A stretch of DNA of 64,000 bases, taken from contig CAZNIO010000005.1 of NCBI GenBank assembly GCA_964573135.1, positions 3,362 through 67,361 of the forward strand, in the 5' to 3' direction. Origin of the DNA: an uncultured Gammaproteobacteria bacterium. Its GTDB lineage: Bacteria; Patescibacteriota; Patescibacteriia; UBA2196; GWA2-42-15. The notes beneath the pieces were generated by a model. It saw only the letters and a program-made list of their open reading frames with translations. It made no database searches and had not been told where the DNA came from. Within the stretch, counting starts at the first letter, position 1, and every line of letters begins with the position of its first letter. This document shows, piece by piece, positions 8,505-59,500 of the stretch. The translations under genes and the position numbers were made by a program.

Positions 8505-8507
8505 ATA

Positions 8508-13195: not shown

Positions 13196-13208
13196 TAAAA
13201 AAACTTAA

Positions 13209-13919: not shown

Positions 13920-13925
13920 AATATT

Positions 13926-19050: not shown

Positions 19051-19063
19051 ATAAATAAAAATT

Positions 19064-38908: not shown

Positions 38909-38984
38909 AAAATCACATTAATATTTTAATATCTAAACACAATACTTAAAATTCAATATTCTATAAACACATCAACACACTAAA

Positions 38985-39685: not shown

Positions 39686-40114
39686 TCAACCCTCATACCG
39701 ACCACCAGTATCAACCATCAATGCCAACTCAGCCAATCGCTGAGAGCTAGTAACCTTCTTTTTTGGCCCAATATCAGATTTAATTTCTCGTACATTTTCT
39801 TCTTCCTGCAATTTAGCTAAATCAGCCTGAGTTACCTGCTTGTGCCATACACGCACCTTAGGTCTTTTAATTGCCTCAATCATGCTACTTACAAATTGAG
39901 AAAAATTACGACCATTAACTTTCACAAATCCAAATACAATAATAAAAACTACGACAATAAAAGTTATCAAAGCGAATGCGCCAGTATCCAATAATTTAAA
40001 TGAACCAAAACACACTATCCCCCCAATTACCATCATTATAAACTGTCTAGTGGTAATAGGGCCAATAATTCTATCCTCAACATTTATAAATTGTGGTGCT
40101 ACAAATCTATCCAT
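39686..40114 (-). CDS. PrgI/VirB3-like small membrane protein
   Basis: IIGPITTRQFIMMVIGGIVCFGSF followed by a second TM, resembling the PrgI-family signature (GLTLRQF + TM hairpin). Located just upstream of the VirB4-like gene. Confidence 0.5.
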   Translation of the reverse strand: MDRFVAPQFINVEDRIIGPITTRQFIMMVIGGIVCFGSFKLLDTGAFALITFIVVVFIIVFGFVKVNGRNFSQFVSSMIEAIKRPKVRVWHKQVTQADLAKLQEEENVREIKSDIGPKKKVTSSQRLAELALMVDTGGRYEG

Positions 40115-44078: not shown

Positions 44079-47000
44079 TTATATATGTTTCATAAACTCA
44101 GCCTTATCTTTCAAGGACGAATAATTAGCATAAACGCCTCTTTGTCTGAACCCTTTTGCCATAGACCCTAAAATTTCTGACATTTTCATACCTTGATATT
44201 TAGATCCAACCCCACGCGCAGTAATCAACCCTTGCTCTTCAAGTTTTTTTATCTCTCCCAACTGCTCCATAGCAATTTTTTGAAAAGCACTGCCATTAAA
44301 CTCACCCCTCTCAAAACGGTTCATCAAATCGTCTTGCGTGCCTATTAACATCAATTTTCCTGATAATGCCAACTCATAATCACCGCCAGCTGTCTCTCCG
44401 CCGTACCCCAATCTATTAGTATTTTGCAAAAATGCACGAGAAGGTTGTTTTAATACCTCATTAGCCACTGCAGCCGCATGTTCTTCTTCCTTCATCCACT
44501 TTGGCATACCTTTTTCAAAAGTTATTAACCGACTTGTCTCAGTATGACCCCTCGATTCATTAATATAGGCAATTTCATTCATTAACCCCAAAGCCTGATT
44601 CTTCGTCATGCCGGCTTTGCCCTCAAGTATTTCGTTAGAAAAACTTTGCATGCCTTTAGCATTACTGGTATATCCACTATGATTTAAAAATTCATTATCA
44701 TTATAATCTTGAGCTGCTTTTTTCAACAAAACTGCCAATCTTGGCCTATCCCTATTTTTGACAGCATCGTCAATCAGTGAATTCAACTCTTCTGCTTCCA
44801 TAGAATCCTTAGGTAAATTCTGCAACTCCTCACTCTCAAGCAAACGATAGGCGTTATCAGCCTGCAAGGTTCGAGGAATATTGGATACTTCGGCTAAAAT
44901 AGACTTTTTAATCCCCGTCAATTTCTTAGATTCTTCTTTGACGTCATCTTTTGTTTTTATGTCTTGGCCACCGATTCCTTTCATGTTCCCGTTAGCAAAA
45001 ACAACGGCTCCCTGCATTTCCCAAATATTTTTCTGCATCTTCCTAGCTTCCCCTGATATTTTTCCCTCCTCGTTTTTAACTGATTTTTTATTTACCTTAA
45101 GCTCTTCCTTAGACAACTTAGCAATCCACTCTCCCTTGCTATCTTTACGCGCCATTTTTTTCTGTTCTTTCAATTTTTCAGCAAGCTCATATCCAACGTT
45201 CTCCCTTTCTCCCTCTTTTCCTTCTTTTCTCAACTTTTTCATCTCTTGTTTCAGCGCGCCCATCTCCTCTTCCAATTCAGTTGCTCTACCTATTTTAACT
45301 TCCTTTTGATTAGCCGTTAATCCCCCTTTTTCAACTTCTTCTAATTCTTTCTTCTTTTCACTAACCTTCTCATTTAAACTATCAATACCCCTTTTTTTCA
45401 ATTCACTTTCATCTTTTTGATTTATACGAGCCTTTTGTCTTTCTTGCCAATCTTCATCTCTATCAACCTGCATCTTTGCAATATCCTTCTTAACTATGCT
45501 ATTAAAATCCCTTATCTCAGTAATTGGTTTACCATCATCACCTGTTGTTGTAATTAGCGCAATACCATTTTTTTTATTAGCATAATCATCAGCTATTTTA
45601 TCGCGAACCATATCTTTCTTTTTCTGTTTATCTTCCGTACTATCTCCCAATGCCGCATATTGAACAGTGTTTTCCAATTCCTTTGCATATGCCGATCTTA
45701 ATCTACTATAAGCTGGGTCATCTTCATCCATGTCTCCCTGCACGATATCGCCCTTTTCGTCAATCAAAATTACTCGCCCCTGTCCTCCCGTAATCTGCCG
45801 CTCATTATAGTTGGTCCTGTTCTCTTTTTCTTGTTTAAAAAGCGCATCCTTGCCTTCTTCAACCGCATCTATATGCTTTGCCCCAGCTTGATAATTCAAA
45901 AGCTCATCCATTCCCATATCCTCAAGCTTCTCATCAGCTTTATCCTGCGCCTTTGTTCCATATTTTTCAGCTCCAGACCAAGTTCTCATCATCTTTAATT
46001 TACCTCTAAGCCCACCATAGTATTTATCATAATCGTCTTGATCTCCTTGTCGCATATACGTCATTCCTAACCTGCCCCAACCCTCTCTGTAAAGTGCTTG
46101 ACTCACATCTCCTGCTTTTTTCTGTCCCTCAATCTCATCCATTGCTTTATTTTTTTCTTTAATAGCTTTTCTCTTGCGATGTTTCCTCATTGGATTAAGC
46201 GCACTAAAACCAGTTGTTTTATACAGTTTTCGTTCCCCATAAGCTGCCAACTGAAATGGTTTTTTAGCTGTCCATTTGGCGGCAGACACAAGTCCTCTCT
46301 GCGCCACATCTTTAACCTTGGTTACTGCGTTCATGCCAATATTTCCACCCATCACCCCCATTTGTTGAGTGATTAATAACGAGGCTATAAGAAGAGCAAT
46401 CGTTGTCATATAGTCAAACATCCTCTGAGGACTCGAAATTTTCGATGCCAAATACTCAACATATTTAGCCCTGTCAACATGACCTTCCGGTTTTTGCCGA
46501 TATAGCTCTATAACATGACTTTTATCTTCCTCTCCAATCTGCTGCAATATTCCAAAAGAAAGCCACAGGAAAAAAGCCAGAATAGGGCCAACTATTATAT
46601 ATTTTGTTAAATACGACCAATACTGACCAAACATTCCAATTTTGTCCAAAGGCCCATTTGGCATGGCTGAAGCAATGAAAACAATAGGGGAGAAAATAAG
46701 TAAAATCCATAACATTATAATCCTAGCCAAAAGAACAGCAATCATCGTCAAAATAACCAAAGCCGCAATCAAAAGCATAATAAATGCCAATATAACAGAG
46801 CCAGCAATAGCATAATGATCTATCTCCTGATCAGTTTTACCTATAACATCACGAAGCTGTAACATTTGTTCTACCCCAAGGGCATTAAGAAATCCTCCAG
46901 CTGCCCCATCGGCCCAGGCATTTACAAAGGTCATCATAACCGTTTGACCCAAATCAATGAATAACCCAACAATCATCTTAGAAAAATTGACCAAAACAGC

Positions 47001-47453
47001 CGCTATTATAAGCTTAGGTAAAAGTTTTTTATACTGATAAGTCTCAATATTAAATAAAGTCCCAAAGGCAATTAAAAGAATTATTACTATAAAAAACATA
47101 TTAGCAAGATCTCGCACCATCACCCAACCCAAAGCCACAGCCCGTGAATCAACAAAATTATTAAACTCAAGCACTCCAATCACCACGCTAATAAAAAGAG
47201 TTAACAGTTTACCAACTACGCTTATAAAAAAAGCAAACAAATCTGCCAAAAGCTTAGCCAGTCTCTGCCCCGGCAAATTGCCACCTTGCGGCTCCGTCAT
47301 GGTAGCTGTACCTCCGGTAGCTGTACCTTGCCCTAAAGCAGTATCAGCAAAAACGCCAAAAACAACCATTATGACTAATAATAGCAAGCCAGTGACAATA
47401 AATAGTTTTCTTTTTTGATTAATTTTTCTAAACATAATTATAAATCGGAACAA
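44079..47453 (-). CDS. VirB6/TrbL-like polytopic membrane protein with ~700-aa C-terminal charged coiled-coil extension
   Basis: The first ~400 aa contain 6-8 TM helices with a Gly/Thr-rich periplasmic loop after the signal anchor, as in TrbL/VirB6. The remainder is K/E-rich with heptad-like periodicity. Confidence 0.55.
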   Translation of the reverse strand: MFRFIIMFRKINQKRKLFIVTGLLLLVIMVVFGVFADTALGQGTATGGTATMTEPQGGNLPGQRLAKLLADLFAFFISVVGKLLTLFISVVIGVLEFNNFVDSRAVALGWVMVRDLANMFFIVIILLIAFGTLFNIETYQYKKLLPKLIIAAVLVNFSKMIVGLFIDLGQTVMMTFVNAWADGAAGGFLNALGVEQMLQLRDVIGKTDQEIDHYAIAGSVILAFIMLLIAALVILTMIAVLLARIIMLWILLIFSPIVFIASAMPNGPLDKIGMFGQYWSYLTKYIIVGPILAFFLWLSFGILQQIGEEDKSHVIELYRQKPEGHVDRAKYVEYLASKISSPQRMFDYMTTIALLIASLLITQQMGVMGGNIGMNAVTKVKDVAQRGLVSAAKWTAKKPFQLAAYGERKLYKTTGFSALNPMRKHRKRKAIKEKNKAMDEIEGQKKAGDVSQALYREGWGRLGMTYMRQGDQDDYDKYYGGLRGKLKMMRTWSGAEKYGTKAQDKADEKLEDMGMDELLNYQAGAKHIDAVEEGKDALFKQEKENRTNYNERQITGGQGRVILIDEKGDIVQGDMDEDDPAYSRLRSAYAKELENTVQYAALGDSTEDKQKKKDMVRDKIADDYANKKNGIALITTTGDDGKPITEIRDFNSIVKKDIAKMQVDRDEDWQERQKARINQKDESELKKRGIDSLNEKVSEKKKELEEVEKGGLTANQKEVKIGRATELEEEMGALKQEMKKLRKEGKEGERENVGYELAEKLKEQKKMARKDSKGEWIAKLSKEELKVNKKSVKNEEGKISGEARKMQKNIWEMQGAVVFANGNMKGIGGQDIKTKDDVKEESKKLTGIKKSILAEVSNIPRTLQADNAYRLLESEELQNLPKDSMEAEELNSLIDDAVKNRDRPRLAVLLKKAAQDYNDNEFLNHSGYTSNAKGMQSFSNEILEGKAGMTKNQALGLMNEIAYINESRGHTETSRLITFEKGMPKWMKEEEHAAAVANEVLKQPSRAFLQNTNRLGYGGETAGGDYELALSGKLMLIGTQDDLMNRFERGEFNGSAFQKIAMEQLGEIKKLEEQGLITARGVGSKYQGMKMSEILGSMAKGFRQRGVYANYSSLKDKAEFMKHI

Positions 47454-47767
47454 ATACTTAATGGTCCATCTCCCCCAAAAAGAGAGTAAACAGAGCTAAT
47501 AGCCTGGACTGATGGAAGATAGCATGCTCCATAGGCAAGAAATACAATAAAAGCAACTAAAACCCCCACACCAAATAATACCAAAGCATAAGCTAATATT
47601 AAAACCAATCCCTTATTTTCTTTCCCTAATTTAGCCCAAGAAAAAATATTAGTTCCACCAGATAAAGCAATCCCAGCAACCGCCTTAGCTGTCTCTTTCT
47701 TTTTTTTTATACTAGCATTTTTTTTCTTATTTTGATTATCATTTTTCGGCATAAAATTATTACTCAT
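47438..47767 (-). CDS. Small K-rich membrane protein (one long TM), possible pilin/VirB2-like candidate
   Basis: 109 aa. Lys-rich N-terminus, 28-aa hydrophobic span, short C-terminal tail with Cys. Overlaps neighbours on both sides. Confidence 0.35.
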   Translation of the reverse strand: MSNNFMPKNDNQNKKKNASIKKKKETAKAVAGIALSGGTNIFSWAKLGKENKGLVLILAYALVLFGVGVLVAFIVFLAYGACYLPSVQAISSVYSLFGGDGPLSICSDL

Positions 47768-48848
47768 ATTCTTTACATTTATTCATTAATTGACCAACAA
47801 GTATCAGCTTACTAGCAGCAGCCTTCCAGCCAGAGGTTGCTTCGTTGGCTGTCATAAACCAATTAATTCTCAGCTCATTACTTTCATCCACAGATATAGT
47901 ACAATGCTCATCTTTACCACAAAGGTTGCCTAAATAATAATTCCATTTAAGTGGAAAACTCAAAAATTTAGACTGAACATATAAAAAACCACATCCTTTC
48001 ATATTAGTATTACTATAATCAATAGACCAAGTATTTGTACCAAATCCAAATCCAACATTATCCTTAAAGGTTAATTCAGATACCTTTTGGACTGACTCTG
48101 GGTCATCTTTAGTCATATAGCAAATATCTTTTGAAACACCAAGCCCCATACAAAACTGATCTTCTTTCTTCGGCTCTGTTTGTTCTAACAACATATATAA
48201 ATTGCCACACTCAGGGACTTCACCTTCGTCTAAATCTGGAATTAATTTTTGACTTTTTTTACAAATTCCAATAACATTTTTATTATCCTTAAGCGTAATA
48301 CTAGCTGGCTGCAACTTCAATTCAGTCAAAGCCGGATTAATCCATGATAATATACTATACGATCCAAGTGCTAATACTAATCCCATTATAGCTGATATTA
48401 TAGTAGTTTTAGCTCCTGCTATCTTTTGAGCGTTACCAGCTGCAAGCAACCATTTAAAACCTCCCAGCATTATCATAACTACTGCTAACAATCCGACAAC
48501 ACCGATAAACAAATTATATATACCTCTTATGTATTGAGGGAAGCCTGCTACGCAATGACGGGTACCAGTCTTATTTTGCTCAAGAGTATGTTTATCTAAA
48601 TTATACACCGAATATGTATATGTACAATCATGTGTTGCTCCAGGTATGCCAATCTGTAGTTCAATAGGAAAAGTCTCAGGGCACTTGTCCTGACATGTTC
48701 GCGCCATTACATCCATCCCGACAATAAACACTCCCACTAAAACAATATTTAAAATCAATAATTTATAAAAAATTAATTTCATATTTTTATGTCTTCGACC
48801 CAGGCAATAACTCCTCATTCCGACTAATTTTAATAATATAAATTTCAT
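47760..48848 (-). CDS. Modular membrane protein, paralog 1: variable Cys-containing N- and C-terminal ectodomains around a conserved two-helix hydrophobic core (TrbC/VirB2-like hairpin, tentative)
   Basis: Core HCVAGFPQYIRGIYNLFIGVVGLLAVVMIMLGGFKWLLAAGNAQKIAGAKTTIISAIMGLVLALGSYSILSWINPALTELKLQPASITL is identical to paralog 2. The flanking domains differ. Confidence 0.55.
   Translation of the reverse strand: MKFILLKLVGMRSYCLGRRHKNMKLIFYKLLILNIVLVGVFIVGMDVMARTCQDKCPETFPIELQIGIPGATHDCTYTYSVYNLDKHTLEQNKTGTRHCVAGFPQYIRGIYNLFIGVVGLLAVVMIMLGGFKWLLAAGNAQKIAGAKTTIISAIMGLVLALGSYSILSWINPALTELKLQPASITLKDNKNVIGICKKSQKLIPDLDEGEVPECGNLYMLLEQTEPKKEDQFCMGLGVSKDICYMTKDDPESVQKVSELTFKDNVGFGFGTNTWSIDYSNTNMKGCGFLYVQSKFLSFPLKWNYYLGNLCGKDEHCTISVDESNELRINWFMTANEATSGWKAAASKLILVGQLMNKCKEYE
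48150..48559. repeat. Direct repeat copy A (~410 bp, near-identical to 49241..49649; last ~270 bp perfectly identical)
   Basis: Read directly: ...ACTAGCTGGCTGCAACTTCAATTCAGTCAAAGCCGGATTAATCCATGATAATATACTATACGATCCAAGTGC...GCTACGCAATGA occurs in both genes. Confidence 0.9.
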
Positions 48849-48862
48849 TAGCTAACTTCGTC

Positions 48863-49921
48863 TTATTGACAGTCCTCTGCTCCACTAAACATAGCAACAT
48901 TAACCCACCCCCTTAACTCGCTCGGCCAATTACTCCTGCCATAATGCCAATGAATCTTATGTTTTGACATATCAACAGCACAATACTTGCCCGTCGGACA
49001 CCTCTCACTAATTGCTGATCCAGTTCTCTCGCCATCGTCATTAATAAAAAAATACATATCCCCACATTTAGAATCTGGAATTGGATCCGTGCCTCCCAAC
49101 TCTCTGGCTATAACACTGTAAGGAACAGCGAGCCCACCAATAGCAGCAATATTGAGTGTCCGTACGGGGGTAACAGTACCGTTTTTATCACGAAAACATA
49201 TATAGGGTGACATTGAATTAAACGGCGGTTTATATCCCTCACAAAACTGATCTTCTTTCTTAGGCTCTGTTTGTTCTAATAACATATATAACTTGCCACA
49301 CTCAGGGACTTCACCTTCGTCTAAATCTGGAATTAATTTTTGATTTTTTTTACAAAAACCAATAACATTTTGACTGCCCGTAAGCGTAATACTAGCTGGC
49401 TGCAACTTCAATTCAGTCAAAGCCGGATTAATCCATGATAATATACTATACGATCCAAGTGCTAATACTAATCCCATTATAGCTGATATTATAGTAGTTT
49501 TAGCTCCTGCTATCTTTTGAGCGTTACCAGCTGCAAGCAACCATTTAAAACCTCCCAGCATTATCATAACTACTGCTAACAATCCGACAACACCGATAAA
49601 CAAATTATATATACCTCTTATGTATTGAGGGAAGCCTGCTACGCAATGAGTCGTAACCGTCTTAACATCCATACCAGCCTTAGGCTTTTTATCAAAATTA
49701 TAATAATCAGCCAAACAACTGTAAGATGTAGATACTCCGGGTATACCAATTTGTAATTTTATCGGAGTAGGATCAAGGCAAGCTTTTGGCTTATTATTTA
49801 CACATTTACTCACTGCCAAAGCGTTATTTACCGAAAACGCACCAAAACCGACAAATACAATAATAGTTAAAAATAATGCCAATAGAATACGCACACTTAC
49901 TCTTTTCTTAACAATCTTCAT
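48863..49921 (-). CDS. Modular membrane protein, paralog 2 (same conserved core, different termini)
   Basis: See paralog 1. N-terminal signal anchor, Cys-rich N-terminal domain, identical core, distinct C-terminal Cys-containing domain. Confidence 0.55.
   Translation of the reverse strand: MKIVKKRVSVRILLALFLTIIVFVGFGAFSVNNALAVSKCVNNKPKACLDPTPIKLQIGIPGVSTSYSCLADYYNFDKKPKAGMDVKTVTTHCVAGFPQYIRGIYNLFIGVVGLLAVVMIMLGGFKWLLAAGNAQKIAGAKTTIISAIMGLVLALGSYSILSWINPALTELKLQPASITLTGSQNVIGFCKKNQKLIPDLDEGEVPECGKLYMLLEQTEPKKEDQFCEGYKPPFNSMSPYICFRDKNGTVTPVRTLNIAAIGGLAVPYSVIARELGGTDPIPDSKCGDMYFFINDDGERTGSAISERCPTGKYCAVDMSKHKIHWHYGRSNWPSELRGWVNVAMFSGAEDCQ
49241..49649. repeat. Direct repeat copy B
   Basis: See copy A. 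A few substitutions and a 1-bp indel in the first ~140 bp, then perfect identity. Confidence 0.9.
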
Positions 49922-50007
49922 GAATATATAATAATTCGTTGATAATAAAATTTATTTATCCTACCTCTTGCCAAAGCCGATAAGGCCATTCAAATAATCC
50001 CTCTGTT

Positions 50008-53000
50008 TTACCTCACAACAATCTCTATCTCATCACTAGTAAGTTCATTACCCCCGTGGTCAGTAATAGTTAATGACGCGAAATAAATACCAGCCAATGG
50101 ATAACTATGTGTTCTCAAAATATGACTATCAATATCATCAGCAATAGTAGTTTCATAAGAATCATTATCACCAAAATCCAAAAAAACAAGCATTGGATAT
50201 TCACCCACTGAAACAAACACATCTGCGTCAAAATTAACAGTTAAAGGCGCTACTCCAAGTATAGGACTAGCAACAAAATCCTGAATAACCAATCCATTAT
50301 CAGGTATAACTGGTAGTATAACGGGTGGTTGATTTGCAGCCCTTATAACCAAAGTTACAGGTATTGTTGCAGTTCCTCCATTACTTAAAATCCGTAATTC
50401 ACCAGAATGATTACCAACAGACATTCCCGATATTCCTGCAACTGTTACTACTATTGGTTCGTCGTCTTTCCCGCCCATCGGATCAATCGTCATCCACGCC
50501 ACATCTTCTCTAACAGACCAGACCAAGACTCCTTCGCCATTGTTGGATATATTAATTATCTGATCGTTATCATCTACAGCCCCATCATTGATGGCTGTAA
50601 AAACCAACTCACTTTGGTCAAGGCTTAAAATAGGAGGGTTCTCAATGGCCCTTTTTTCCTTATAAACCACAACTCTCATCAGTGGCTCATGCCACTCATC
50701 CCTGCCCTGCCCCCAATTATCTTCAAGCTGAATTCTTATATTAAACTCACATTTACCAAGAGTATCATCACAAGCCGGATCACTCGCATCATATTTATAA
50801 TGATGCACTAAAATATGAGGATTACTCATATCGCGCCCAGCAATTCTAAGCCCAGCCTCTGTAGATTTTTCATCGTCTCCCCAATCAACTGTATATCGTA
50901 CCAAAGGAATTTGATTAGGATTAACAAATGAATCAAATTTGAGCACTGCAGTACCCTCAATAAATATGGTTCTATCTAAAAAATTACTATTATTAATTAA
51001 AATATTTTTAACCTGGGGCGGACTGCCATAATAGTCAGTTAAGTCATAATTATCCCTATTATTCATCTTCACATACCGATATCTGTGTATACCACTGGTG
51101 TTATCAAATTTCCACTCCCAAACATCAAATGATTTAGCAAATATCTTACTCAAATTATATTCACCCTTAGATAAATTCATCGGTCTTAACACGAGATCAG
51201 TATTAATTAAATCATTGCCACCCTGCCCCACGACCAAACTATTTAGCTTGTCAAATTCGTCATCCTCAGAAATATCATTAAAATACACTTGGGAAGCACT
51301 AATACCAACACATAATCCATACTTGCCAGTCACTATGTCCAGCTCGCAATCTTCTCTTCCATTTCGACAAGGCTGTCCAATTTTTGATCCTGAAACACAA
51401 GTAGCTGGACCAAAAAACTCAGGTGGTGGATTAGATAAGCTATATTTTTCACAAACGCTTGTAACACAATTACCCCTTATTAAACCATAAGCCCCACCTG
51501 CTCGTGGCTGATAAGGGCTCACTTCCCCCATTGTCTTATCAGCTGGCTCTACATAAATAGCGCTTGTCCATATTGACGGATCCTCAACAGGATCTGGCGG
51601 AATAATTGAACCAAATAGCATATAGTCATCACCTTTGGTATAACCCACCCATGATGGATCGTCAACATTCCCAGAATTCAATCTCTTCAGCCACGCCGCA
51701 TTAAAACCATCTAAATCAACCACTTGAGCAATTTTTAAACAAGGCTCGCTTAAATAAAAAGTTAAACTTAAGGTAGCTTTATCTGTCCCGTCACCTGAAT
51801 CTGATGGATCATCACACTCTTTAAAATAAATTTCATATAAATCCCCGGTATCTTCATAAAAACTTAATTTCATTCCCAAAAAATTACCTATCTTGCCATC
51901 ATTATCATTACCGCAATCCAGATAAGTATCACTAAATATATCTTCACCCTCTCTCTCTCCTTCATTATATTGAAAAACCCAAGTGTTACCCTCCCAAAAA
52001 TAACCTGTATACCCCATTTTATTTGATTCGCCACCTCTTGGAGCAGTTTCATTCATGCCTAAAGGCCCATCACTCTTGGCGTTCAACAAGCTCCCGCTCA
52101 AATTCCATTGGCTACCACTGCCATTAGTATGTAACCTAACTCCCAATATTTCACTCCGGTTCAACCTAGACCCATCAAAATTCCAAAATATATAGCTAGC
52201 TTCTCCAACATTACGATCCATAATTGTAACGGGATACTCATAAGTCACCCTATACTCTCCAGATTCATAAGGAGAAATATATGACTGTCTATCTTCTGTC
52301 TCCAAAATATTATTATCACTTTCTCTTCTACTTACCCACTCACACCCAGACTTAGTGTTACACACCTCTCGGGTTTTATTTCCCCCACACGTCATCTGTG
52401 GCGAACACGCCCCTAAGTCAACATTCTCCCTCTTGTAATTCCCAGCTGCTTCGAGACAATAGTATAATGGTTTTCTACCTGTATACCCAGCTACATCATC
52501 CACTCCAAAAACATTAGATTCACCTCGTACCACATCTACCGGCCACCACTGTAAACACATTGGCTGACTGGTATATTGTCTATCTGTCCATCCTGGATCA
52601 GGCTCCACGCAATAACCTTTCCACCCTTTATAATCTTTACCCTCATCTTCATCATAATAGTCGCATGCCGGTGCATTTTCACGCGGATAAAGACGACAAG
52701 AACGGGAAATAAAATTTAAATCATCTCCAATTTGTAAAGCACCTTTCATCGATACATTATCAAGATAAAAGGTATCCATATTTGCCTTAATATCACCACT
52801 TACAAAAGCAACGTTTAATTTATTCAAATTACTGCTCCCGCCATAGTCCACAGGTCCGTTCACTCGCATAATAAATTCCTGCCAATATGGCTCCAGCCTC
52901 ACCTTTTTCTTTACTGGGCTTACCAACGGATCTATTTCATTAAAATCATAATAAGTAAAAGGTATATAACCACCTGTTCCACCATCTCTATCCGGTGCCA

Positions 53001-55905
53001 ATTCTACTATAATATCCTGCCCATCCCAATTATCAGTTCGTGCCCTAAAACTAATAATATAATCCTTGCCAGCCTTAACCTCTTTAGCCAAACCCGTGAG
53101 CACAACACCTGGAAATGGCTGATCCTTATCAAGATCAACTTGCAATACTCGATTAGAAGTATTTCTTTCATCAATCACATTTAAAATATACTTATCAATA
53201 TTATTATAAGCTGACCATGGTCTAGTAGTACCATCTTCAAAATTAAAATTAGCAATATTAACTGGTACACCAGCTTCTGTCATACTACTATATGGATAAT
53301 TCCCCCGTATTTTAGCTTCAACACACTGGCCTTCGCCACACACGCTCTTGACTGATTGGCACGTCTCTAAACGGCAATCTCGATTAGAGGTACACGCTCC
53401 ATGACTGATGACACCCCCGCAATAACCACAAATTGATCCAGTATTACTACATCGATATCCCCAATCTAACCCCGCCTTAGAATAACCAGATAAATTAGCG
53501 ATGGATTCTGCATCGCCAGGATGCTGACGGGTTAGCTCGTTAGTTGATGAGTCAACACTATGTGCACAACCACCAGCCTCATCTAGTTCATCACACAATC
53601 CAACAGAAAAACACACTTCTTCATTACCTGGCTTTTGTCCCACTTGAAAAATTTCTGTATTCTGTCTTGGCACTTCAACATAAGCATTACAATATAGCCA
53701 CGTGTCACACGTCCTATCAGGATCAACCCGTAAAATAATATTAGAGTCCGGCGAAGATAACTCATCATCAGTTGTAAAAGTTAATACCTTAAAATCACAA
53801 GTAGCAGAAGAGGAGCATCCACCGCCAGCAGTCCGGTTTAGAGTCTCTTTTGTGGTATGCGAACTTATAACAACCCTATAATCTGTATCATCTAAAAGAC
53901 CTGTTAGTTTTACCTCGTGTCCTGATACTAACTCTGCCTTTTTTATCTCCGCATATTCTCCACCTGAAGGCCTATAATAAACAACAGTATTTGATAATCC
54001 ATTTTTGTTTATACCCTTTCTTGTCCACCATGAAACCACCGCACTATTAGCCTTAATTTTACTTTTAGGAACAATATGATCATAAATCTCCAACTTATCA
54101 ATTTGTACCGCTGTAAATTCACCACTCACAGGCGGAGTCAAGGATGTGAGCCCAGAACCACTAGCTCCATTACATATAATAGTATAATTATAAGCCTGAC
54201 CGGACGTTAACCCAATTACCTTATAACTATGAACTGTACTTGCGCTACTATCAATTGAAGGCGCTACCTGTCCACCCACCACATTCAATCTACAAATAGC
54301 ATCTAAGTTCGTCGAAAAACCGGCAGTGGCTGCTGTCTCACTTACTGTTATGTTTACCTGTCCATCTATAACTATCTCTTTTTTAATAATTTTATATATT
54401 CCTTCACCTTTACTAGAAATCAGCACTACATCATTACCGCTCTTTATTTGCGTACCATTCTCAAAAGTTATTTTAGTTGAATCAATTTCCACAAATTTCG
54501 CTCCAAAATCCATATCAGCCAATTTAACTTCCCCTGTTCCCCCTGTATATCCTCGTAATTTAATAGTTACTTTTCCACTACCAGCACTTTCCTCCGCAAC
54601 GCTATTAGCAATACTACTATTTACATCTAATCTATTATCACTCATGCTCCAGTGGCTATTAGTATAATCTAAAACCACATCAATATCTGTTACATTTGAA
54701 TTATTATTATTCAAAATTAATTCAATAGGTAAAGTTGTCCCAGCATTTACCGTCACCCGCGAAGGTGAAAGTAAAAGTGCTGCCGTACCAGGTGGCGGAG
54801 TAAAACAGTCTCGCGTACAACATCTATGAATTTCACTTAACCACATACTGCCAGGACACATCTCGTCTTGACTACAAATTTTTTCAGATGCACAAGTTAA
54901 ACACGCTTCCTCACAACACTCATTTATCTCATCCATCCAATTATTCTCAGGGCACAATTCATTCTGATCACATATATTATCTACAGAACATACAAAACAC
55001 GTCTGTCCACAACACCTAGTTGCTTCATCTAACCAAGTATTTACAGGGCACAATTCATTTTGCGCACAAACGTCTCCTGTGCAAACCACAGGTGGCTCAC
55101 AAGCCACCGCGCAACACCTCGTAGTCTCGTCCTCCCAATTATTACAAGTCTCCACCGAATTACACAACTCTCCGGAACAACCCTCCTCGCCTCCACCGCC
55201 GCCTCCCCCATCACAACTCAAGGTGATATCATAATTACCACCGCTACCGTCCACGGAATAATCCACACCTAATACAATCCCAGTCTCTTCCATGCCGAAA
55301 CCAGATGTCTGCTCCGACGCATCCCCTGATTGATTACCAAAAAACCTCATTTGAGTACTGCCACTCGCGCTTGGAGCCACTGTCACATTTAAAATTGCTA
55401 ACAACCTATTATCCTCATTCAGAGGTGACGAGGAAGCGCGTACTACCTGAATCAATCCCGCACCATCATCCACGAATTCAAGCGCATCTCCTCCTATACC
55501 ATAATGAGACAAACTACTATCAATAGATATATTACTAAATTTAGATGAGTCGTATGATATAAAAGAACCAGCAGTTATCACACCAAAACCATTCTGATTT
55601 GAATGATTAGCCGGATTAACATCTGTCATAATCCTAATAGAATAAGTTTGCCCACACTTCATCGTTCTATCCTCAATCTCCTGCCCCATCCCATCAGTTA
55701 ACCTCATCACTGGATCGCCAGATACAGCCAAAGCAAAAATTAATCCTAAAGCAAGCACTATTACCAACAAGGGCAACATAAAATATATCACCTTCTTTTT
55801 AGGAGACATCCATTTTATTTTCTGTTTCAACCTAAACCACCTTGAAGTCTTATATACCTCAAGGCTCTCAGGTGTTTGGCTATTCACATCGTTAACCTCT
55901 GGCAT
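50008..55905 (-). CDS. Giant (1965 aa) membrane-anchored surface protein: cohesin-like N-terminal domain, four tandem Cys-rich ~33-aa modules, Ig-like/beta-rich regions, C-terminal PKD-like domain
   Basis: N-terminal TM anchor. Poly-Gly then modules CxxxxCxxxELCPxNxWxDExxxCCxxxC repeated four times (aa ~265-370; DNA ~54798-55113). C-terminal ...FGDNDSYETT...THSYPLAGIYFASLTITDHGGNELTSDEIEIVV resembles PKD. Confidence 0.7.
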   Translation of the reverse strand: MPEVNDVNSQTPESLEVYKTSRWFRLKQKIKWMSPKKKVIYFMLPLLVIVLALGLIFALAVSGDPVMRLTDGMGQEIEDRTMKCGQTYSIRIMTDVNPANHSNQNGFGVITAGSFISYDSSKFSNISIDSSLSHYGIGGDALEFVDDGAGLIQVVRASSSPLNEDNRLLAILNVTVAPSASGSTQMRFFGNQSGDASEQTSGFGMEETGIVLGVDYSVDGSGGNYDITLSCDGGGGGGGEEGCSGELCNSVETCNNWEDETTRCCAVACEPPVVCTGDVCAQNELCPVNTWLDEATRCCGQTCFVCSVDNICDQNELCPENNWMDEINECCEEACLTCASEKICSQDEMCPGSMWLSEIHRCCTRDCFTPPPGTAALLLSPSRVTVNAGTTLPIELILNNNNSNVTDIDVVLDYTNSHWSMSDNRLDVNSSIANSVAEESAGSGKVTIKLRGYTGGTGEVKLADMDFGAKFVEIDSTKITFENGTQIKSGNDVVLISSKGEGIYKIIKKEIVIDGQVNITVSETAATAGFSTNLDAICRLNVVGGQVAPSIDSSASTVHSYKVIGLTSGQAYNYTIICNGASGSGLTSLTPPVSGEFTAVQIDKLEIYDHIVPKSKIKANSAVVSWWTRKGINKNGLSNTVVYYRPSGGEYAEIKKAELVSGHEVKLTGLLDDTDYRVVISSHTTKETLNRTAGGGCSSSATCDFKVLTFTTDDELSSPDSNIILRVDPDRTCDTWLYCNAYVEVPRQNTEIFQVGQKPGNEEVCFSVGLCDELDEAGGCAHSVDSSTNELTRQHPGDAESIANLSGYSKAGLDWGYRCSNTGSICGYCGGVISHGACTSNRDCRLETCQSVKSVCGEGQCVEAKIRGNYPYSSMTEAGVPVNIANFNFEDGTTRPWSAYNNIDKYILNVIDERNTSNRVLQVDLDKDQPFPGVVLTGLAKEVKAGKDYIISFRARTDNWDGQDIIVELAPDRDGGTGGYIPFTYYDFNEIDPLVSPVKKKVRLEPYWQEFIMRVNGPVDYGGSSNLNKLNVAFVSGDIKANMDTFYLDNVSMKGALQIGDDLNFISRSCRLYPRENAPACDYYDEDEGKDYKGWKGYCVEPDPGWTDRQYTSQPMCLQWWPVDVVRGESNVFGVDDVAGYTGRKPLYYCLEAAGNYKRENVDLGACSPQMTCGGNKTREVCNTKSGCEWVSRRESDNNILETEDRQSYISPYESGEYRVTYEYPVTIMDRNVGEASYIFWNFDGSRLNRSEILGVRLHTNGSGSQWNLSGSLLNAKSDGPLGMNETAPRGGESNKMGYTGYFWEGNTWVFQYNEGEREGEDIFSDTYLDCGNDNDGKIGNFLGMKLSFYEDTGDLYEIYFKECDDPSDSGDGTDKATLSLTFYLSEPCLKIAQVVDLDGFNAAWLKRLNSGNVDDPSWVGYTKGDDYMLFGSIIPPDPVEDPSIWTSAIYVEPADKTMGEVSPYQPRAGGAYGLIRGNCVTSVCEKYSLSNPPPEFFGPATCVSGSKIGQPCRNGREDCELDIVTGKYGLCVGISASQVYFNDISEDDEFDKLNSLVVGQGGNDLINTDLVLRPMNLSKGEYNLSKIFAKSFDVWEWKFDNTSGIHRYRYVKMNNRDNYDLTDYYGSPPQVKNILINNSNFLDRTIFIEGTAVLKFDSFVNPNQIPLVRYTVDWGDDEKSTEAGLRIAGRDMSNPHILVHHYKYDASDPACDDTLGKCEFNIRIQLEDNWGQGRDEWHEPLMRVVVYKEKRAIENPPILSLDQSELVFTAINDGAVDDNDQIINISNNGEGVLVWSVREDVAWMTIDPMGGKDDEPIVVTVAGISGMSVGNHSGELRILSNGGTATIPVTLVIRAANQPPVILPVIPDNGLVIQDFVASPILGVAPLTVNFDADVFVSVGEYPMLVFLDFGDNDSYETTIADDIDSHILRTHSYPLAGIYFASLTITDHGGNELTSDEIEIVVR

Positions 55906-55911
55906 AGTTGC

Positions 55912-56544
55912 CTAATTAATTAAAAAATTTAAATCCATTAAGTCAAGATTCATCAAAGTTGCCTGCCCATCATCAACTGCCACTTGAGTCTCCTGATTAT
56001 CAAGCCAGACTCTTGCCTCACCAGATTCTAGAGCGCGTAAAACAACGCTACTCAAAATACCATCACTCCCAGTATATCCGTCATCACTATCATCCACGTT
56101 ATTATCCCCTGGCTCACCTCTCACAATCTCCACATACCCATCTTCTTTGTTCTCAATGGCTCCAATAGATAAAACTGAATTTTCACTGTCCACTTCAACT
56201 ACCTCCCATTTACTCTTATCGTAATTTAATCTAATATTAACCGCTACTATATTTGTACCCAAAGTATCAAGCAAAACATTAGCTACTATCTCATCCCCAA
56301 CCTTCACTTCATTAACCATCGACTCTAAGTACATTTTACCCGCATAATCGCCAACTGGCTCTTGCTTATCATCAACTACAACTACCTCTACCTCTTCTTG
56401 CGGTTTATTAAAAATTAATATACCACCGATAACAATCAGGATAATAAGGACAATCAAACCAGGAATCCATACCTTTTTATTCTTCAACATGCCACAGCAC
56501 TTCTTCTCCTCCACTTCCCCCTCTTTTTTTTCTAAATTTTCCAT
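55912..56544 (-). CDS. Membrane-anchored cohesin-like domain protein (tentative)
   Basis: N-terminal TM. Beta-rich domain VKVGDEIVANVLLDTLGTNIVAVNIRLNYDKSKWEVVEVD resembling cohesin type folds. Confidence 0.4.
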   Translation of the reverse strand: MENLEKKEGEVEEKKCCGMLKNKKVWIPGLIVLIILIVIGGILIFNKPQEEVEVVVVDDKQEPVGDYAGKMYLESMVNEVKVGDEIVANVLLDTLGTNIVAVNIRLNYDKSKWEVVEVDSENSVLSIGAIENKEDGYVEIVRGEPGDNNVDDSDDGYTGSDGILSSVVLRALESGEARVWLDNQETQVAVDDGQATLMNLDLMDLNFLIN

Positions 56545-56566
56545 ATAATTATATATTAATTAAAAA

Positions 56567-59500
56567 TTAATTTGCTATCGGCATTGGCACGTTATAGCTG
56601 CAAATACCACTCAATTGACGATTAAATACCTTACAATCATTAATTGTCCGACAAGTCCTCCCCCATATATTACTACAAGTATTTGTCTTTGAATTGCAAC
56701 TACCAGTCTCGCCAGAAGCCACACAGTCACTATCCATCTCACACGGCTGATAAGGCGAAATAAAATTAGAACAATGCTTAGTACTAAAATATTTAAAATC
56801 TCCTCCGCCAACTTCATTAAATGGCAAACATCCTTTGCTTGGATCAACAGTGGTACAAGTATCCAGCGTATTGCTTAGATAATAATAATAATCGCAATAA
56901 GGATCCACGCCATATTCTCCATAAACAGATAATTTATCACATCCCTTAGGTCTTGAACGATCTTGAAATTCAGTACACGTATCCTGACCTACAGGGCAAG
57001 TGGCCGTCCAGCCACTGCATAATCCAGGAGAAGTTCCACGCGCATAATCTGCACACTCATCATTGCTTGAACACACATTCTCATTTACTCCCCCCAAATT
57101 ATTATTTGGCATACTTCTACCGCCCATGCAGTACCCTTCTTCACCGCCAAATACAAAGGGACAAAATTCAAGAGTTCCTATCTTATACCATGCATAACTA
57201 TTGTTATCATCTTTCTTGTACTCACACTCTTTACCATGAGGGTCTTCAAAATATTCCAATGCTCCAGAACTATCCATAAATTCATCACACCACATCTTAT
57301 CTGATGTGCATAAAGGACTTCCAGGAGTAGAAAAATCGTCTGGATCAACTATCATATATTTTGTTTCATAACTTATATAGCCGCTCAAACCAGAAACATC
57401 TGGCCACATCATACCAAGGGACATGCACCCATTGGTCGTACATTTCTTGCTTTCATCATAAACAATATATTCCAAAGAATCAGCTAAAACTGTAACTAAA
57501 CCATATGTTTCCCCTTCATGATTACTAGAATTTTTTGTATCAATCATTGGCTCACATCCGACCACCTCATCTCTGCATAATCCATCAAATGATTTTAGAT
57601 AAACTTCTCTATTTCTCATATCCTTATATTTCTCACAACCCACCATAGATCCTTCTGCTGGCTCATCACACGAGTCAGGCGTAACCCACGAATCACGAAT
57701 TAAATACAGGCTATCTTGAGTTTCAGTTAAGACAATGTTGTCGATATAAAATCCACTACCAGAATCAAGCATAATAGATAAAAGTTCTTTGCCCATCAAG
57801 TCTCTATCCAAGCTCTTTATATCAAACATATAGAATCCCCAATCTTCAGTTAAACTCACATCAGTTGACCCTTCAAATTCAGGATTACCAGTAAAAGAAA
57901 CTTCGCTAATTACTGCCGCTGTCTCAGCTCGTGCCCAAAATGATATTCTGTATGCTCGTCCCTGCTCTATAGCTCCAGTCACGTCTTTGGCAATACCATA
58001 AGTTGAAAACAAAGAATGACCACCCACTATTAAAGAGGTATTATCAGGCGTTCCGCCCTCCCAGTCTTGCTTAGTACCGTCTTCAAAATCATCATACAAT
58101 AAATTCGTCGTATTATTGCTCTTACTTCCCTTGTATTCTCGACAACCAACCGATCTAGCACCACACGTATCGCTTTGAGATAAAATAGCAGCATAATATG
58201 TCTGATCCTCTGTTCTGCGTAACAAAGTACAATCCTTAGAAGCAAAAACCACTTTTGACTGCTCAATCTTATACTTACTACCGCTTAAATCAGTAAACTC
58301 AATGCATTCTGGACTATAATCAATATCACCCACATTAGTTGAACAGCTATCAATACTTGTATCAGCACAAGTCACCTCGCCATTTGCCGTCGTTATTGGA
58401 TTTGTACATGGAGCATCACCCAAATTAGATTTAAGCAAAGACCAACTACGTAATCTATTTCCTCCCACTTTTTCCGTTGACTCCCAAGTATAATAGACGC
58501 TCACTCCAGATTCACCTGGACCCACACATGCTCGCAAATATGAATAATTTTCTATTCGTTCTCCCTCAATTCCCTCTGATAAATTAGTAAATTCTTCACA
58601 CCCCACATCAGCTGCCGGACAAGTCGAAGCCGTTGTATCAATTAAATTAACAAATTCATCAGTTGCCTCTGGTGGATCAAAAAATGTAGTTTTCTCAACA
58701 TATGTCTTATACCCAACACATTCACCGGGACACTTGTCGTCTTCTACCACAACTCCAGGCACGTCTGGACCCAAATATGATATTGGTTTATAAAACTCAC
58801 AATTAGCATCGCTTGAATTACAATACAAAGCATAACTTGCACACTCAAGAACCCCACTCTCCACACATGCCTGTATATCCTCACGCCACAAATAACCTGC
58901 CATCTGACAACCCTCTTCATCCTGCGCAACACCCTCAGCAACATCAGTAAATCCCTGGCAACTCAAATAGCTAGGAGCTTTACGCAAATTAATAGGATAA
59001 ACGGACTCATAAACTTCAATAGCACTAAATGTACCGGCCACTACTGCATCTAGATCAGCTTGTGACCCTATCCTATAAAATAAGCTACATCCTTCTTCCT
59101 CGGGAGAGCACTCCTTATCACTTGCATTTCGATTTAAATACTTTCTTTCGTTGTTTGGATCATCGCAACCCCACCCTCCATTATCCACATCAAAATAAGC
59201 ACAATATTCACGACACCCGGCATTAGAAGCATCACACGCCCCATCACTTCTACCCCGCAGAGTATTTGTTAAATAATTAACCTGTCCCCCAGCTCTTGTA
59301 GTAAATGATTTACATGTGTTATAAACCGCTGAACATTCTGTACCGTGTATATCCCAAACTGATTTTTCCTCAACACAATAACCATAGAAATCACATCGAG
59401 AACCATCTGCACTTTCCTTAATACAAGCCCTCTCATCAGCACAATACTCAGAGTTCCTATACACTACCATTTTGTCCTCATCGCGAGGATCGACATGAGT

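What the first reader, a model, noticed from the sequence alone, without database searches (positions are those of the whole stretch)
47760..49921. Tandem paralogs share a 410-bp near-identical DNA core (270 bp perfect) but have unrelated N- and C-terminal ectodomains
Copies at 48150..48559 and 49241..49649 are nearly identical at the nucleotide level in an otherwise divergent gene pair. Third-codon positions are identical too, which points to recent gene conversion or recombination rather than purifying selection alone. The shared core encodes a two-helix hydrophobic hairpin (FKWLLAAGNAQKIAGAKTTIISAIMGLVLALGSYSIL). The flanking Cys-containing domains, presumably extracellular, are completely different. 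This is the architecture of a cassette system in which a constant membrane/assembly module carries alternative surface-exposed heads. It could be a pilin-like or adhesin subunit family whose specificity varies, with the repeat acting as a recombination substrate.
Basis: seen in the sequence. Interest (0 to 1): 0.8.

Follow-up and report, generated by a model that had tools for sequence, protein, structure and literature searches.

The report
Gene-converted tandem T4SS pilin paralogs
Two neighbouring genes for pilin-like subunits of a type IV secretion system in an ultrasmall (Patescibacteria) bacterium keep their middle 409 bp nearly identical, most likely by copying it from one another, while their outward-facing ends have drifted far apart; this is a clean but not unprecedented case of one shared core carrying two different surfaces.

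Summary
Window 48150-48558 and 49241-49649 are 97.3% identical (398/409), with a perfect 269-bp run (48290-48558 = 49381-49649) and abrupt edges. The two genes (47760-48848 and 48863-49921, minus strand) both match Pfam T4SS_pilin (PF18895) and lie in a chromosomal Patescibacteria type IV secretion gene row (VirB6-like, PrgI/VirB3, split VirB4). No codon with the same amino acid differs in the perfect block (0/89), against about 45% in the flanks and 56-78% in orthologous cores of other genomes. That points to DNA-level homogenisation (gene conversion), not purifying selection alone. A contig from another sample differs from gene B at eight clustered sites, and all eight carry the gene A base, which suggests ongoing conversion. 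The claim of "unrelated" ends is wrong. The N-terminal regions are 34% identical, all 12 cysteines align, and a family profile recognises both C-terminal domains. No silent cassettes occur in the window. The closest relatives have one copy. Tandem VirB2-like arrays in Patescibacteria are already published; the converted core and the long variable heads add detail. In other lineages the partner's head is a cell-wall hydrolase. Head function is unknown, and interest is moderate.

The parts
48863..49921 (-). Gene B: 352-aa long-form VirB2-like pilin paralog. It has a signal peptide, a Cys-containing beta-hairpin N-domain, a T4SS_pilin helical hairpin, a linker and a Cys-rich beta-rich C-terminal head. 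Its head is the more divergent of the two.
   Evidence: ORF. PF18895 at E 2.5e-9, 37.5 bits against cut-off 26.6. AlphaFold2 model m96c561ceef00, pLDDT 71. The family tail profile scores only 17.4 bits on its head.
47760..48848 (-). Gene A: 362-aa long-form VirB2-like pilin paralog with the same architecture. Its head is of the type common in the family. The true start may be Met23.
   Evidence: ORF. PF18895 at E 2.7e-9, 37.4 bits. AlphaFold2 model m0c27adba818a, pLDDT 74.6, head about 85. The tail profile scores 55 bits. It is adjacent to the small membrane-protein gene, as is the single pilin of relatives.
48290..48558 (-). Perfectly identical block, copy in gene A (codons 97-186). It covers the conserved Cys99, the whole helical hairpin, the NP motif and the start of the linker.
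   Evidence: Offset-1091 comparison. 0/89 synonymous differences.
49381..49649 (-). Perfectly identical block, copy in gene B.
48150..48289 (-). Near-identical extension in gene A (codons 187-233: linker plus the first part of the C-terminal domain up to Cys233). It has 11 differences in 140 nt.
49241..49380 (-). Near-identical extension in gene B. Its part 49344-49380 is the polymorphic patch: in contig L001 all 8 differences there carry the gene A base.
47438..47767 (-). 109-aa small membrane protein directly downstream of gene A. Relatives keep it as a 104-120-aa gene in the same position. No family match.
44079..47453 (-). 1124-aa polytopic membrane protein, the VirB6/TrbL-like channel component of the same gene row.
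   Evidence: A near-identical 1118-aa product in L012 carries a weak precomputed PF19590 TrbL_3 hit. Conserved synteny, 47-61% identity in relatives. No direct Pfam hit.
39686..40114 (-). PrgI (VirB3-like) component.
   Evidence: PF12666 at E 2.5e-11.
37016..39668 (-). Split VirB4 ATPase: a 227-aa TrsD-like N-terminal piece (38985-39668) and a 630-aa ATPase (37016-38908).
   Evidence: NF045971 CD1110-family VirB4 at 354.6 bits against cut-off 325. NF041427 TrsD and VirB4_plasma hit the 227-aa protein. PF19044 and PF12846.
34408..35112 (-). DsbA-like thioredoxin at the end of the gene row. It is a plausible oxidase for the 12-Cys ectodomains (inferred).
   Evidence: PF13462 at E 8e-22 and PF01323 at E 3.5e-10.
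50008..61060 (-). Upstream giant surface proteins (1965 aa, 210-aa cohesin-domain protein, 1497 aa), syntenic with the pilin gene in relatives.
   Evidence: BACON_2, CBM_4_9, PKD_4 and Cohesin hits. Synteny.

Best explanation
The two genes are tandem paralogs of a long-form VirB2-like pilin (Pfam T4SS_pilin). They sit in the chromosomal, monoderm-type type IV secretion gene row of a Patescibacteria genome whose closest named relatives are Candidatus Kuenenbacteria.

Each protein has a signal peptide and a small Cys-containing beta-hairpin. A two-helix membrane/assembly hairpin follows, then a flexible linker and a roughly 170-aa Cys-rich beta-rich head. Both ectodomains would face outward.

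The paralogs are homologous along their whole length and anciently diverged; silent sites in the flanks are saturated. The central 409 bp, from Cys99 to Cys233, is kept identical or nearly so by non-reciprocal homologous recombination (gene conversion) between the direct repeats. Purifying selection on the hairpin preserves enough DNA identity to seed recombination. The diverged flanks stop the heteroduplex, which explains the sharp edges.

The inferred consequence is one shared core that fits the single-copy machine (VirB6-like, PrgI, VirB4) and two different exposed surfaces, co-transcribed from one gene row. These surfaces presumably make contact with host-cell or other target surfaces.

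Shown here: the identity pattern, family membership, the genomic context, the homology of the ends, the single copy in the closest relatives, and the paralog-state variant in another sample. Inferred: the topology, co-expression, and what the heads bind.
For: Sequence identity. The perfect block is 269 bp and the near-identical block 409 bp, both with abrupt edges. In the perfect block 0/89 identical-amino-acid codons differ synonymously and in the extension 3/40, against 13/28 and 10/22 in the flanks. None of 200,000 permutations reached the observed run. The same amino-acid-conserved core in other genomes is only 49-58% identical in DNA, with 56-78% of identical-amino-acid codons differing. 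Protein-level selection therefore does not explain DNA identity.

Population variant. L001, from another sample, is 99.5% identical to the window. Eight of its nine differences lie in 49344-49380, and all eight equal the gene A base.

Family and context. PF18895 scores above its cut-off for both genes. The T4SS context is shown. Both AlphaFold2 models give a helical hairpin plus a beta-rich head.

Homology of the ends.

Copy number. The syntenic loci of the closest relatives hold one pilin gene.

Recurrence. Weaker core homogenisation is seen in tandem long-pilin pairs of other lineages. There 22-32% of identical-amino-acid codons differ in the core in five of the seven pairs, against 42-69% in the rest of the gene across all seven.

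Literature. Tandem VirB2-like arrays are common in Patescibacteria, and the T4SS is essential for epibiotic growth in one cultivated species (PMC12102498, PMC12857230).
Against: All sequences are short-read metagenome assemblies. An assembler that collapses small differences and walks the same edge twice could turn about 97-99% identity into 100%. L001's mosaic could in principle be an assembly or library chimera, and I could not inspect reads.

Shared codon preference within one genome accounts for part of the lower synonymous divergence in the weaker cases of other lineages.

The age of the duplication is unknown, and acquisition of a foreign allele followed by conversion gives the same pattern.

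There are no expression data. Neither a promoter nor a terminator stands out.

The heads have no detectable relative among solved or viral structures, so their role is a guess. A 170-aa head on every subunit may be sterically incompatible with a VirB2-type filament, so these proteins may not polymerise at all.
Confidence: 0.8

Rival explanations
1. Assembly artefact. A single gene, or two moderately similar genes, was duplicated or homogenised by the assembler, so the identical block is not biological.
For: All data are short-read assemblies. Several contigs break inside the repeat (L007 at 49479, L008 at 49343, L010 at 49349, L012 at 48409). Exact gene B with both flanks was seen on only two contigs.
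Against: Copy A with both unique flanks is reproduced at 99.9-100% identity in six further contigs from different samples and pipelines (JGI and ENA). Copy B with both flanks is reproduced in L001. L002, L007, L008 and L010 run from gene B sequence into complete gene A, confirming the tandem order. The flanks are far too different (41-50% nt) to be collapsed variants. Breaks inside the repeat are what a real repeat produces.
Confidence: 0.05
2. Recent tandem duplication followed by very fast, selection-driven divergence of the two ends. The core would be identical only because too little time has passed.
For: The heads are the most variable part of the family. An allelic head-tip replacement exists in a related lineage (L019/L020). 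The closest relatives have a single copy.
Against: Silent sites in the flanks are as diverged as between distant genomes: 45% of identical-amino-acid codons differ and third-position identity is 0.40-0.42, while the core has none. Point-mutational divergence cannot saturate silent sites on both sides of a 269-bp block that has zero changes. The edges are step-like, not graded.
Confidence: 0.04
3. Programmed cassette (antigenic or phase) variation of the Neisseria pilE/pilS or Anaplasma msp2 type. The core would be the recombination handle through which silent head cassettes elsewhere in the genome are moved into an expression site.
For: The layout is a constant core with variable exposed ends. 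There is a segmental paralog-state variant in another sample and a nonsense variant truncating the gene A head in a third sample. An allelic head-tip swap occurs in a relative.
Against: The 64-kb window holds only two copies of the core, both full-length ORFs in one gene row. The 5.8-billion-cluster protein search found no other head joined to this core; after P0001 and P0002 the next hit is 49% identical, although the species is sampled in at least 8 assemblies. The observed variant changes the constant part, not a head. Contigs from eight samples are otherwise 99.5-100% identical, so the heads are not shuffling.
Confidence: 0.06
4. The identical DNA is conserved for a nucleic-acid-level function, such as an embedded RNA or regulatory element, an overlapping gene, or extreme codon constraint for membrane insertion.
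For: Perfect conservation includes silent sites.
Against: No Rfam family matches at E up to 1 in 47000-50500. No substantial overlapping ORF lies in the perfect block. Promoter-like and terminator-like sites are at chance level. Orthologous cores in other genomes vary freely at silent sites, so no such constraint acts on the family.
Confidence: 0.03

Closest known systems
Tandem VirB2-like pilin arrays of Patescibacteria T4SS loci (Quinonero-Coronel et al. 2025, PMC12102498; essential pilin array of Ca. Southlakia epibionticum, Wang et al. 2023 as cited in PMC12857230)
   Same: Same Pfam family (PF18895). Same monoderm-type T4SS context with PrgI/VirB3, VirB4, TrsD and VirB6-like genes and no relaxase seen nearby. 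Tandem arrangement. Paralogs differ strongly outside the hairpin. The paper reports 441 arrays of 2-11 genes with within-array identity averaging 25% and reaching at most 54%; this pair is 54% identical overall.
   Different: These proteins are about three times longer than typical VirB2-like pilins and carry a 170-aa Cys-rich C-terminal domain. The core is identical at the DNA level, which indicates gene conversion. The paper mentions neither conversion nor pilin-hydrolase fusions. The closest relatives of this locus have a single pilin gene, not an array.
virB2 paralog clusters of Anaplasma phagocytophilum and A. marginale (PMC3556328); Bartonella as cited in PMC12102498
   Same: Several tandem virB2 genes lie next to virB4. 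The two hydrophobic helices are conserved. Diversity is concentrated in two hypervariable regions, one near an N-terminal cysteine and one near the C-terminus. Proposed roles are antigenic variation or a broader range of host-surface interactions.
   Different: Those are short, classical diderm VirB2 proteins in intracellular pathogens of animals. The variable regions are short segments, not folded domains. From what I read, DNA-identical cores were not reported.
Gene conversion between paralogous surface-protein genes, e.g. Helicobacter pylori babA/babB and Neisseria pilE/pilS (recalled from general knowledge, not tested here)
   Same: Paralogs share near-identical segments that act as recombination substrates while other segments stay divergent. 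Population samples show mosaic variants.
   Different: In those systems conversion moves the variable, surface-exposed part and generates antigenic or adhesive variants. Here conversion acts on the constant part and the heads stay put. No silent donor copies were found.
Mbov_0395 family pilin-like conjugal transfer protein of Mycoplasma ICEs (NCBIfam NF045849)
   Same: This is the only NCBIfam model that the hairpin touches: residues 99-169, E 5e-5 to 1e-4. It is a pilin-like two-helix protein in a monoderm conjugation system.
   Different: The score is 22-23 bits against a cut-off of 40, so these genes are not members. That family is about 80 aa long and has no ectodomains.

Membership tests
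T4SS_pilin (Pfam PF18895), VirB2-like pilins | Match to the family HMM above the curated gathering score | tested here: met
   Gene A scores 37.4 bits and gene B 37.5 bits against a cut-off of 26.6, covering profile positions 7-70 of 71.
T4SS_pilin (Pfam PF18895), VirB2-like pilins | Two long hydrophobic helices forming a hairpin with a short polar loop, preceded by a signal sequence | tested here: met
   AlphaFold2 gives helices 103-136 and 140-170 in A and 97-130 and 134-164 in B, with an N-terminal hydrophobic helix followed by VMA/ALA. No dedicated signal-peptide predictor was available.
T4SS_pilin (Pfam PF18895), VirB2-like pilins | Encoded beside core T4SS genes (VirB4, VirB3, VirB6) | tested here: met
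   VirB4 CD1110 family scores 354.6 bits against a cut-off of 325, PrgI has E 2.5e-11, and a TrbL_3-like 1124-aa protein is present, all on the same strand within 11 kb.
T4SS_pilin (Pfam PF18895), VirB2-like pilins | Small protein (roughly 100-130 aa precursor) consisting essentially of the hairpin | tested here: not met
   The proteins are 352 and 362 aa, with a roughly 55-aa N-domain and a roughly 170-aa C-terminal domain. About 20 database homologs share this long form.
T4SS_pilin (Pfam PF18895), VirB2-like pilins | Polymerises into an extracellular conjugative-type pilus | not testable with these tools
   This needs microscopy or biochemistry. It is not established for any Patescibacteria pilin; PMC12857230 speaks of 'potential to elaborate conjugative pili'.
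Classical TrbC/VirB2 (Pfam PF04956) and solved VirB2/TraA pilins | Sequence or fold match to TrbC/VirB2 or to solved pilin structures | tested here: not met
Programmed cassette variation (pilE/pilS, msp2 type) | Silent, truncated or promoter-less donor copies in addition to an expression site | tested here: not met
   Only two core copies occur in 64 kb, and both are complete ORFs. No further head on this core was found in the protein database. The rest of the genome was not available.
Programmed cassette variation (pilE/pilS, msp2 type) | Population variants produced by segmental transfer of the variable region | tested here: not met
   The one segmental variant (L001) lies in the constant block. 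The heads are 100% identical across samples apart from one nonsense SNP.
Concerted evolution by gene conversion between paralogs | Paralogs within a genome are more alike at silent sites than orthologs or their own flanks, the tract edges are sharp, and variants carry the paralog's state | tested here: met
   Silent differences are 0/89 in the block against about 45% in the flanks and 56-78% between genomes. The edges are step-like. In L001, 8 of 8 clustered differences equal the paralog base. The strict test, orthologs of A and of B in a sister strain, was not possible because no close two-copy relative was found.
Polymorphic toxin / contact-dependent effector with exchangeable C-terminal tip | Variable C-terminal toxin domain followed by a cognate immunity gene, often with orphan tips | tested here: not met
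   The downstream gene is a conserved 104-120-aa membrane protein in all relatives. The heads match no toxin family. Head-tip replacement in L019/L020 leaves the downstream gene unchanged.

The most novel reading that the evidence does not exclude
In Patescibacteria the VirB2-like hairpin may be a general display or delivery module for the type IV secretion machine rather than only a filament subunit. On this reading it carries interchangeable extracellular heads: Cys-rich binding domains as in this window, or peptidoglycan hydrolases (amidase, M15 peptidase, NlpC/P60) in other lineages. Gene conversion would keep the module uniform among paralogs so that every head fits the single machine. 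Duplication, head replacement and conversion together would then set which host cells the epibiont can attach to or breach.
Probability: 0.25. Interest if true: 0.7.

Novelty: new variant of a known kind. Interest (0 to 1): 0.45.

Why it matters
The T4SS is the one system shown to be essential for the host-dependent life of a cultivated Patescibacterium, and its pilin arrays are suspected to set host range (PMC12102498, PMC12857230). This locus gives a clean natural example of how such arrays may evolve. The part that must fit the machine is kept uniform by recombination, while the exposed parts are free to diverge. It also shows that some of these 'pilins' are large multi-domain proteins. The related pilin-hydrolase fusions hint at where the missing VirB1-type cell-wall activity of these systems may reside. 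Both points lead to testable experiments on head binding and host specificity. The underlying genetics, gene conversion between tandem paralogs, is ordinary.

Tried and rejected

2. An exact-match scan of metagenome contigs for a 47-nt core probe found nothing, although JGI contigs with this sequence exist. That collection evidently lacks them, so the scan says nothing about extra copies.

3. A homolog search with the gene B head alone returned nothing, not even P0001, which contains it. This negative is uninformative.

4. A look-up of exact gene B (P0031) found no contig on record, so the source genome could not be named. The genome-contig scan gave only 5 distant loci and not the source genome.

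5. An embedded RNA element was rejected: no Rfam match. Promoter and terminator scans were at chance level.

6. The polymorphic-toxin reading was rejected because the downstream gene is conserved and there is no toxin domain.

7. The 109-aa downstream protein is not a third pilin by the core HMM.
Full report
**1. Observation**

The minus strand carries two adjacent ORFs: gene B (48863-49921, 352 aa) and gene A (47760-48848, 362 aa). They are 14 nt apart.

At a constant offset of 1091 nt, window 48290-48558 equals 49381-49649 exactly, a run of 269 bp. The near-identical block is 48150-48558 against 49241-49649, with 398 of 409 positions identical. On both sides identity drops in one step to about 41-50%. 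A 53-nt probe from the core occurs only at these two places in the 64-kb window, with none expected by chance. An HMM of the core finds no third copy among all six-frame ORFs.

**2. Is it real?**

Independent assemblies from other samples reproduce the locus.
- L002, L007, L008, L009, L010 and L011 contain complete gene A with both unique flanks at 99.9-100% identity.
- L001 contains complete gene B with both flanks at 99.5%.
- L002, L007, L008 and L010 run from gene B sequence into complete gene A.
- Four contigs begin inside the repeat: L007 at 49479, L008 at 49343, L010 at 49349, and the 51.8-kb contig behind L012 at 48409. This is what a genuine repeat does to short-read assemblers.

All of this is still short-read data. 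An assembler could have polished, say, 98% identity to 100%. The contrast with the flanks is not at risk.

**3. What the genes are**

Both proteins match Pfam PF18895 (T4SS_pilin) above the gathering score, at 37.4 and 37.5 bits against 26.6. NCBI names a homolog 'pilin'.

The genes lie in a minus-strand gene row made of the following, in order:
- giant surface proteins (50008-61060; BACON, CBM, PKD and cohesin domains);
- gene B and gene A;
- a 109-aa membrane protein;
- a 1124-aa polytopic protein, whose near-identical copy carries a weak TrbL_3 (VirB6-like) hit;
- two proteins without family matches;
- an inserted Schlafen/AlbA_2 protein;
- PrgI (VirB3-like);
- a TrsD-like N-terminal VirB4 piece;
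- a VirB4 ATPase of the CD1110 family (354.6 bits against cut-off 325);
- a DsbA-like thioredoxin.

This is the monoderm-type T4SS described for Patescibacteria (PMC12102498). The named homologs are from Candidatus Kuenenbacteria.

**4. Architecture**

AlphaFold2 with a 23-sequence family alignment gives the following for gene A (pLDDT 74.6):
- an N-terminal hydrophobic helix, 19-44;
- a beta-hairpin, 62-100;
- two long helices, 103-136 and 140-170;
- a disordered linker, 177-188;
- a beta-rich C-terminal domain, 192-360, with pLDDT around 85.

Gene B gives the same order of elements; this is not independent, because the alignment was the same.

The homogenised block runs from the nearly invariant Cys99 to the invariant Cys233.

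**5. The ends are divergent homologs, not unrelated**

- The N-terminal regions align at 34% identity (E 3e-8), including the motif LQIGIPG.
- The last roughly 125 residues are not significantly similar by pairwise BLASTP (E 3.5). However, a profile built from the corresponding tails of 16 family members, excluding A and B, detects A at 55 bits and B at 17.4 bits (E 2e-7 for a single comparison).
- In the family alignment the cysteines C56, C214, C233, C243, C286 and C358 are invariant and C99 and C196 nearly so (gene A numbering). After the signal peptide, A and B each have 12 cysteines at aligned positions.
- Gene A has the common head type; gene B is the derived one.

The DsbA-like gene in the same row fits disulfide-bonded ectodomains. 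This is an inference.

**6. Why gene conversion**

| Region | Identical-amino-acid codons that differ synonymously |
|---|---|
| Perfect block | 0 of 89 |
| Near-identical extension | 3 of 40 |
| N-terminal flank | 13 of 28 |
| C-terminal flank | 10 of 22 |

Third-position identity is 1.00 in the perfect block against 0.40-0.42 in the flanks. Permuting the 26 synonymous differences over the 170 informative codons never gave a clean run of 87; the maximum was 69 in 200,000 trials.

The hairpin is strongly conserved as protein across the family. Even so, its DNA in other genomes is only 49-58% identical to the window, and 56-78% of identical-amino-acid codons differ. Purifying selection on the protein therefore does not produce DNA identity. 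A recent duplication cannot explain saturated silent sites immediately next to a block with none. No RNA family, overlapping ORF or regulatory signal accounts for it either.

**7. Suggestive evidence that conversion is ongoing**

The population is nearly clonal across samples, at 99.5-100% over 1.4-6.7 kb. L001 (ENA ERZ27316021) differs from the window at nine positions in 1856. Eight of them lie within 37 nt (49344-49380), at the edge of the perfect block, and all eight carry the gene A base. The next three paralog-distinguishing sites (49292, 49280, 49262) keep the gene B base. In that sample the identical tract is therefore at least 88 nt longer. This is the expected footprint of a conversion tract with a different end point.

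The caveat is that I could not examine reads. A chimera would need a switch back within a 51-nt identical stretch, which is hard to obtain at k = 141 but not impossible.

**8. Copy number in relatives**

The syntenic loci of the nearest relatives I could fetch have the order giant proteins, one pilin, small protein, VirB6-like. These are P0009 on a 133-kb contig, P0017 in Kuenenbacteria RIFCSPHIGHO2_02_FULL_39_13, and L018-L026. The second copy is therefore lineage-specific. Gene A keeps the ancestral position next to the small protein.

Whether gene B arose by an old duplication or by capture of a foreign allele cannot be told. No closer relative of its head exists in the database.

**9. The pattern recurs**

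Among 97 fetched loci, 26 have two or more pilin ORFs, with arrays of up to 11. This agrees with the 441 arrays reported in PMC12102498. In tandem pairs of long pilins from other lineages (L055, L043, L056, L042, L062, L039):
- the 70-codon core is 72-89% identical in DNA, against 39-48% for the rest of the gene;
- in five of the seven pairs 22-32% of identical-amino-acid codons differ in the core; the figures for L042 and L039 are 36% and 48%. In the rest of the gene the figure is 42-69%.

Part of that difference may be shared codon preference. The window's pair is the extreme case.

In three of these pairs the partner's head is not homologous at all but is a cell-wall hydrolase: Amidase_2 (E 2.7e-17), Peptidase_M15_4 (1.8e-19) and NlpC/P60 (1.8e-10).

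Separately, two orthologous single-copy loci, L019 and L020, are 99.6% and 98.9% identical on either side of a roughly 240-nt stretch of the head that is unalignable. This is an allelic replacement of the head tip. In this window it takes the form of two fixed, co-oriented genes rather than a cassette system.

**10. Mechanism proposed**

Selection on the hairpin keeps stretches of DNA similar enough to start homologous recombination between the direct repeats, which lie 1091 nt apart. Each event copies one core onto the other. The diverged flanks block extension, giving sharp edges that vary slightly between events. These steps are partly shown and partly inferred.

The result is that both paralogs keep one and the same interface for the single-copy machine and for each other, while the N-domain and most of the head differ. 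This part is inferred.

What the heads do is not known. No relative was found among solved or viral structures. Contact with host-cell surfaces is the most economical guess, given the epibiotic lifestyle and the published proposals for VirB2 arrays. Whether proteins with a 170-aa head per subunit can form a VirB2-type filament is open. They may instead be membrane-anchored or tip-located.

**11. Comparison with what is known, and novelty**

Tandem, divergent VirB2-like arrays in Patescibacteria are published, with a reported maximum within-array identity of 54%, the same value as this pair. Anaplasma virB2 clusters show the same logic: conserved helices with hypervariable N- and C-proximal regions. 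Gene conversion between paralogous surface-protein genes is classical. I found no paper that links Patescibacteria pilins with gene conversion. The 2025 survey mentions neither conversion nor pilin-hydrolase fusions.

I therefore rate this a new variant of a known kind. It is well documented and mechanistically ordinary, and of moderate interest mainly to people working on Patescibacteria-host contact and T4SS evolution.

Noticed in passing
L019:1012-1251 versus L020:997-1245: Two orthologous single-copy long-pilin loci from different metagenomes are 99.6% and 98.9% identical on either side of a roughly 240-nt unalignable stretch that encodes the distal part of the C-terminal head. This looks like an allelic head-tip replacement by recombination. 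The donor is unknown.
   Followed up: partly
L043:3875-5026, L042:1467-2810, L062:5057-6394: These long T4SS_pilin proteins have a peptidoglycan hydrolase as C-terminal head (Amidase_2, Peptidase_M15_4 and NlpC/P60 respectively). Each is paired in its locus with a longer-tailed pilin whose core is similar in DNA: adjacent in L043 and L042, about 1.3 kb away in L062. They might supply the VirB1-type activity reported as mostly missing near Patescibacteria T4SS loci. I did not find this described in PMC12102498.
   Followed up: partly
window 48065 (L002 position 1095): In the contig from sample ERZ27315835 a single AAG-to-TAG change truncates gene A at residue 261, removing most of its head. It could be a real loss-of-head variant or a sequencing error.
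   Followed up: no
window 41154-42533: A Schlafen AlbA_2 / HATPase_c_4 / HTH protein sits inside the T4SS gene row at the position where Kuenenbacteria relatives carry an AAA_14/DUF4143 ATPase. This suggests a variable insertion slot within the row.
   Followed up: no
window 37016-39668: VirB4 appears split into a 227-aa TrsD-like N-terminal protein and a 630-aa ATPase. The same two-gene layout (224 aa plus about 630 aa) is seen in relatives.
   Followed up: partly
window 50008-61060: Two giant secreted proteins (1965 and 1497 aa, with Cys-rich repeats and BACON, CBM_4_9 and PKD domains) and a 210-aa cohesin-domain protein lie directly upstream of the pilin genes. They are syntenic with the pilin in relatives, so they may belong to the same surface apparatus.
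   Followed up: no
window 34408-35112: A DsbA-like thioredoxin gene closes the T4SS gene row. It may serve the 12-cysteine pilin ectodomains and the Cys-rich giant proteins.
   Followed up: no
window 6969-20699: A long minus-strand run encodes large membrane proteins and glycosyltransferases (PMT_2, DUF2079 nearby, PTPS_related, a GT1-methyltransferase fusion), several without any family match. It is probably a surface glycosylation cluster.
   Followed up: no
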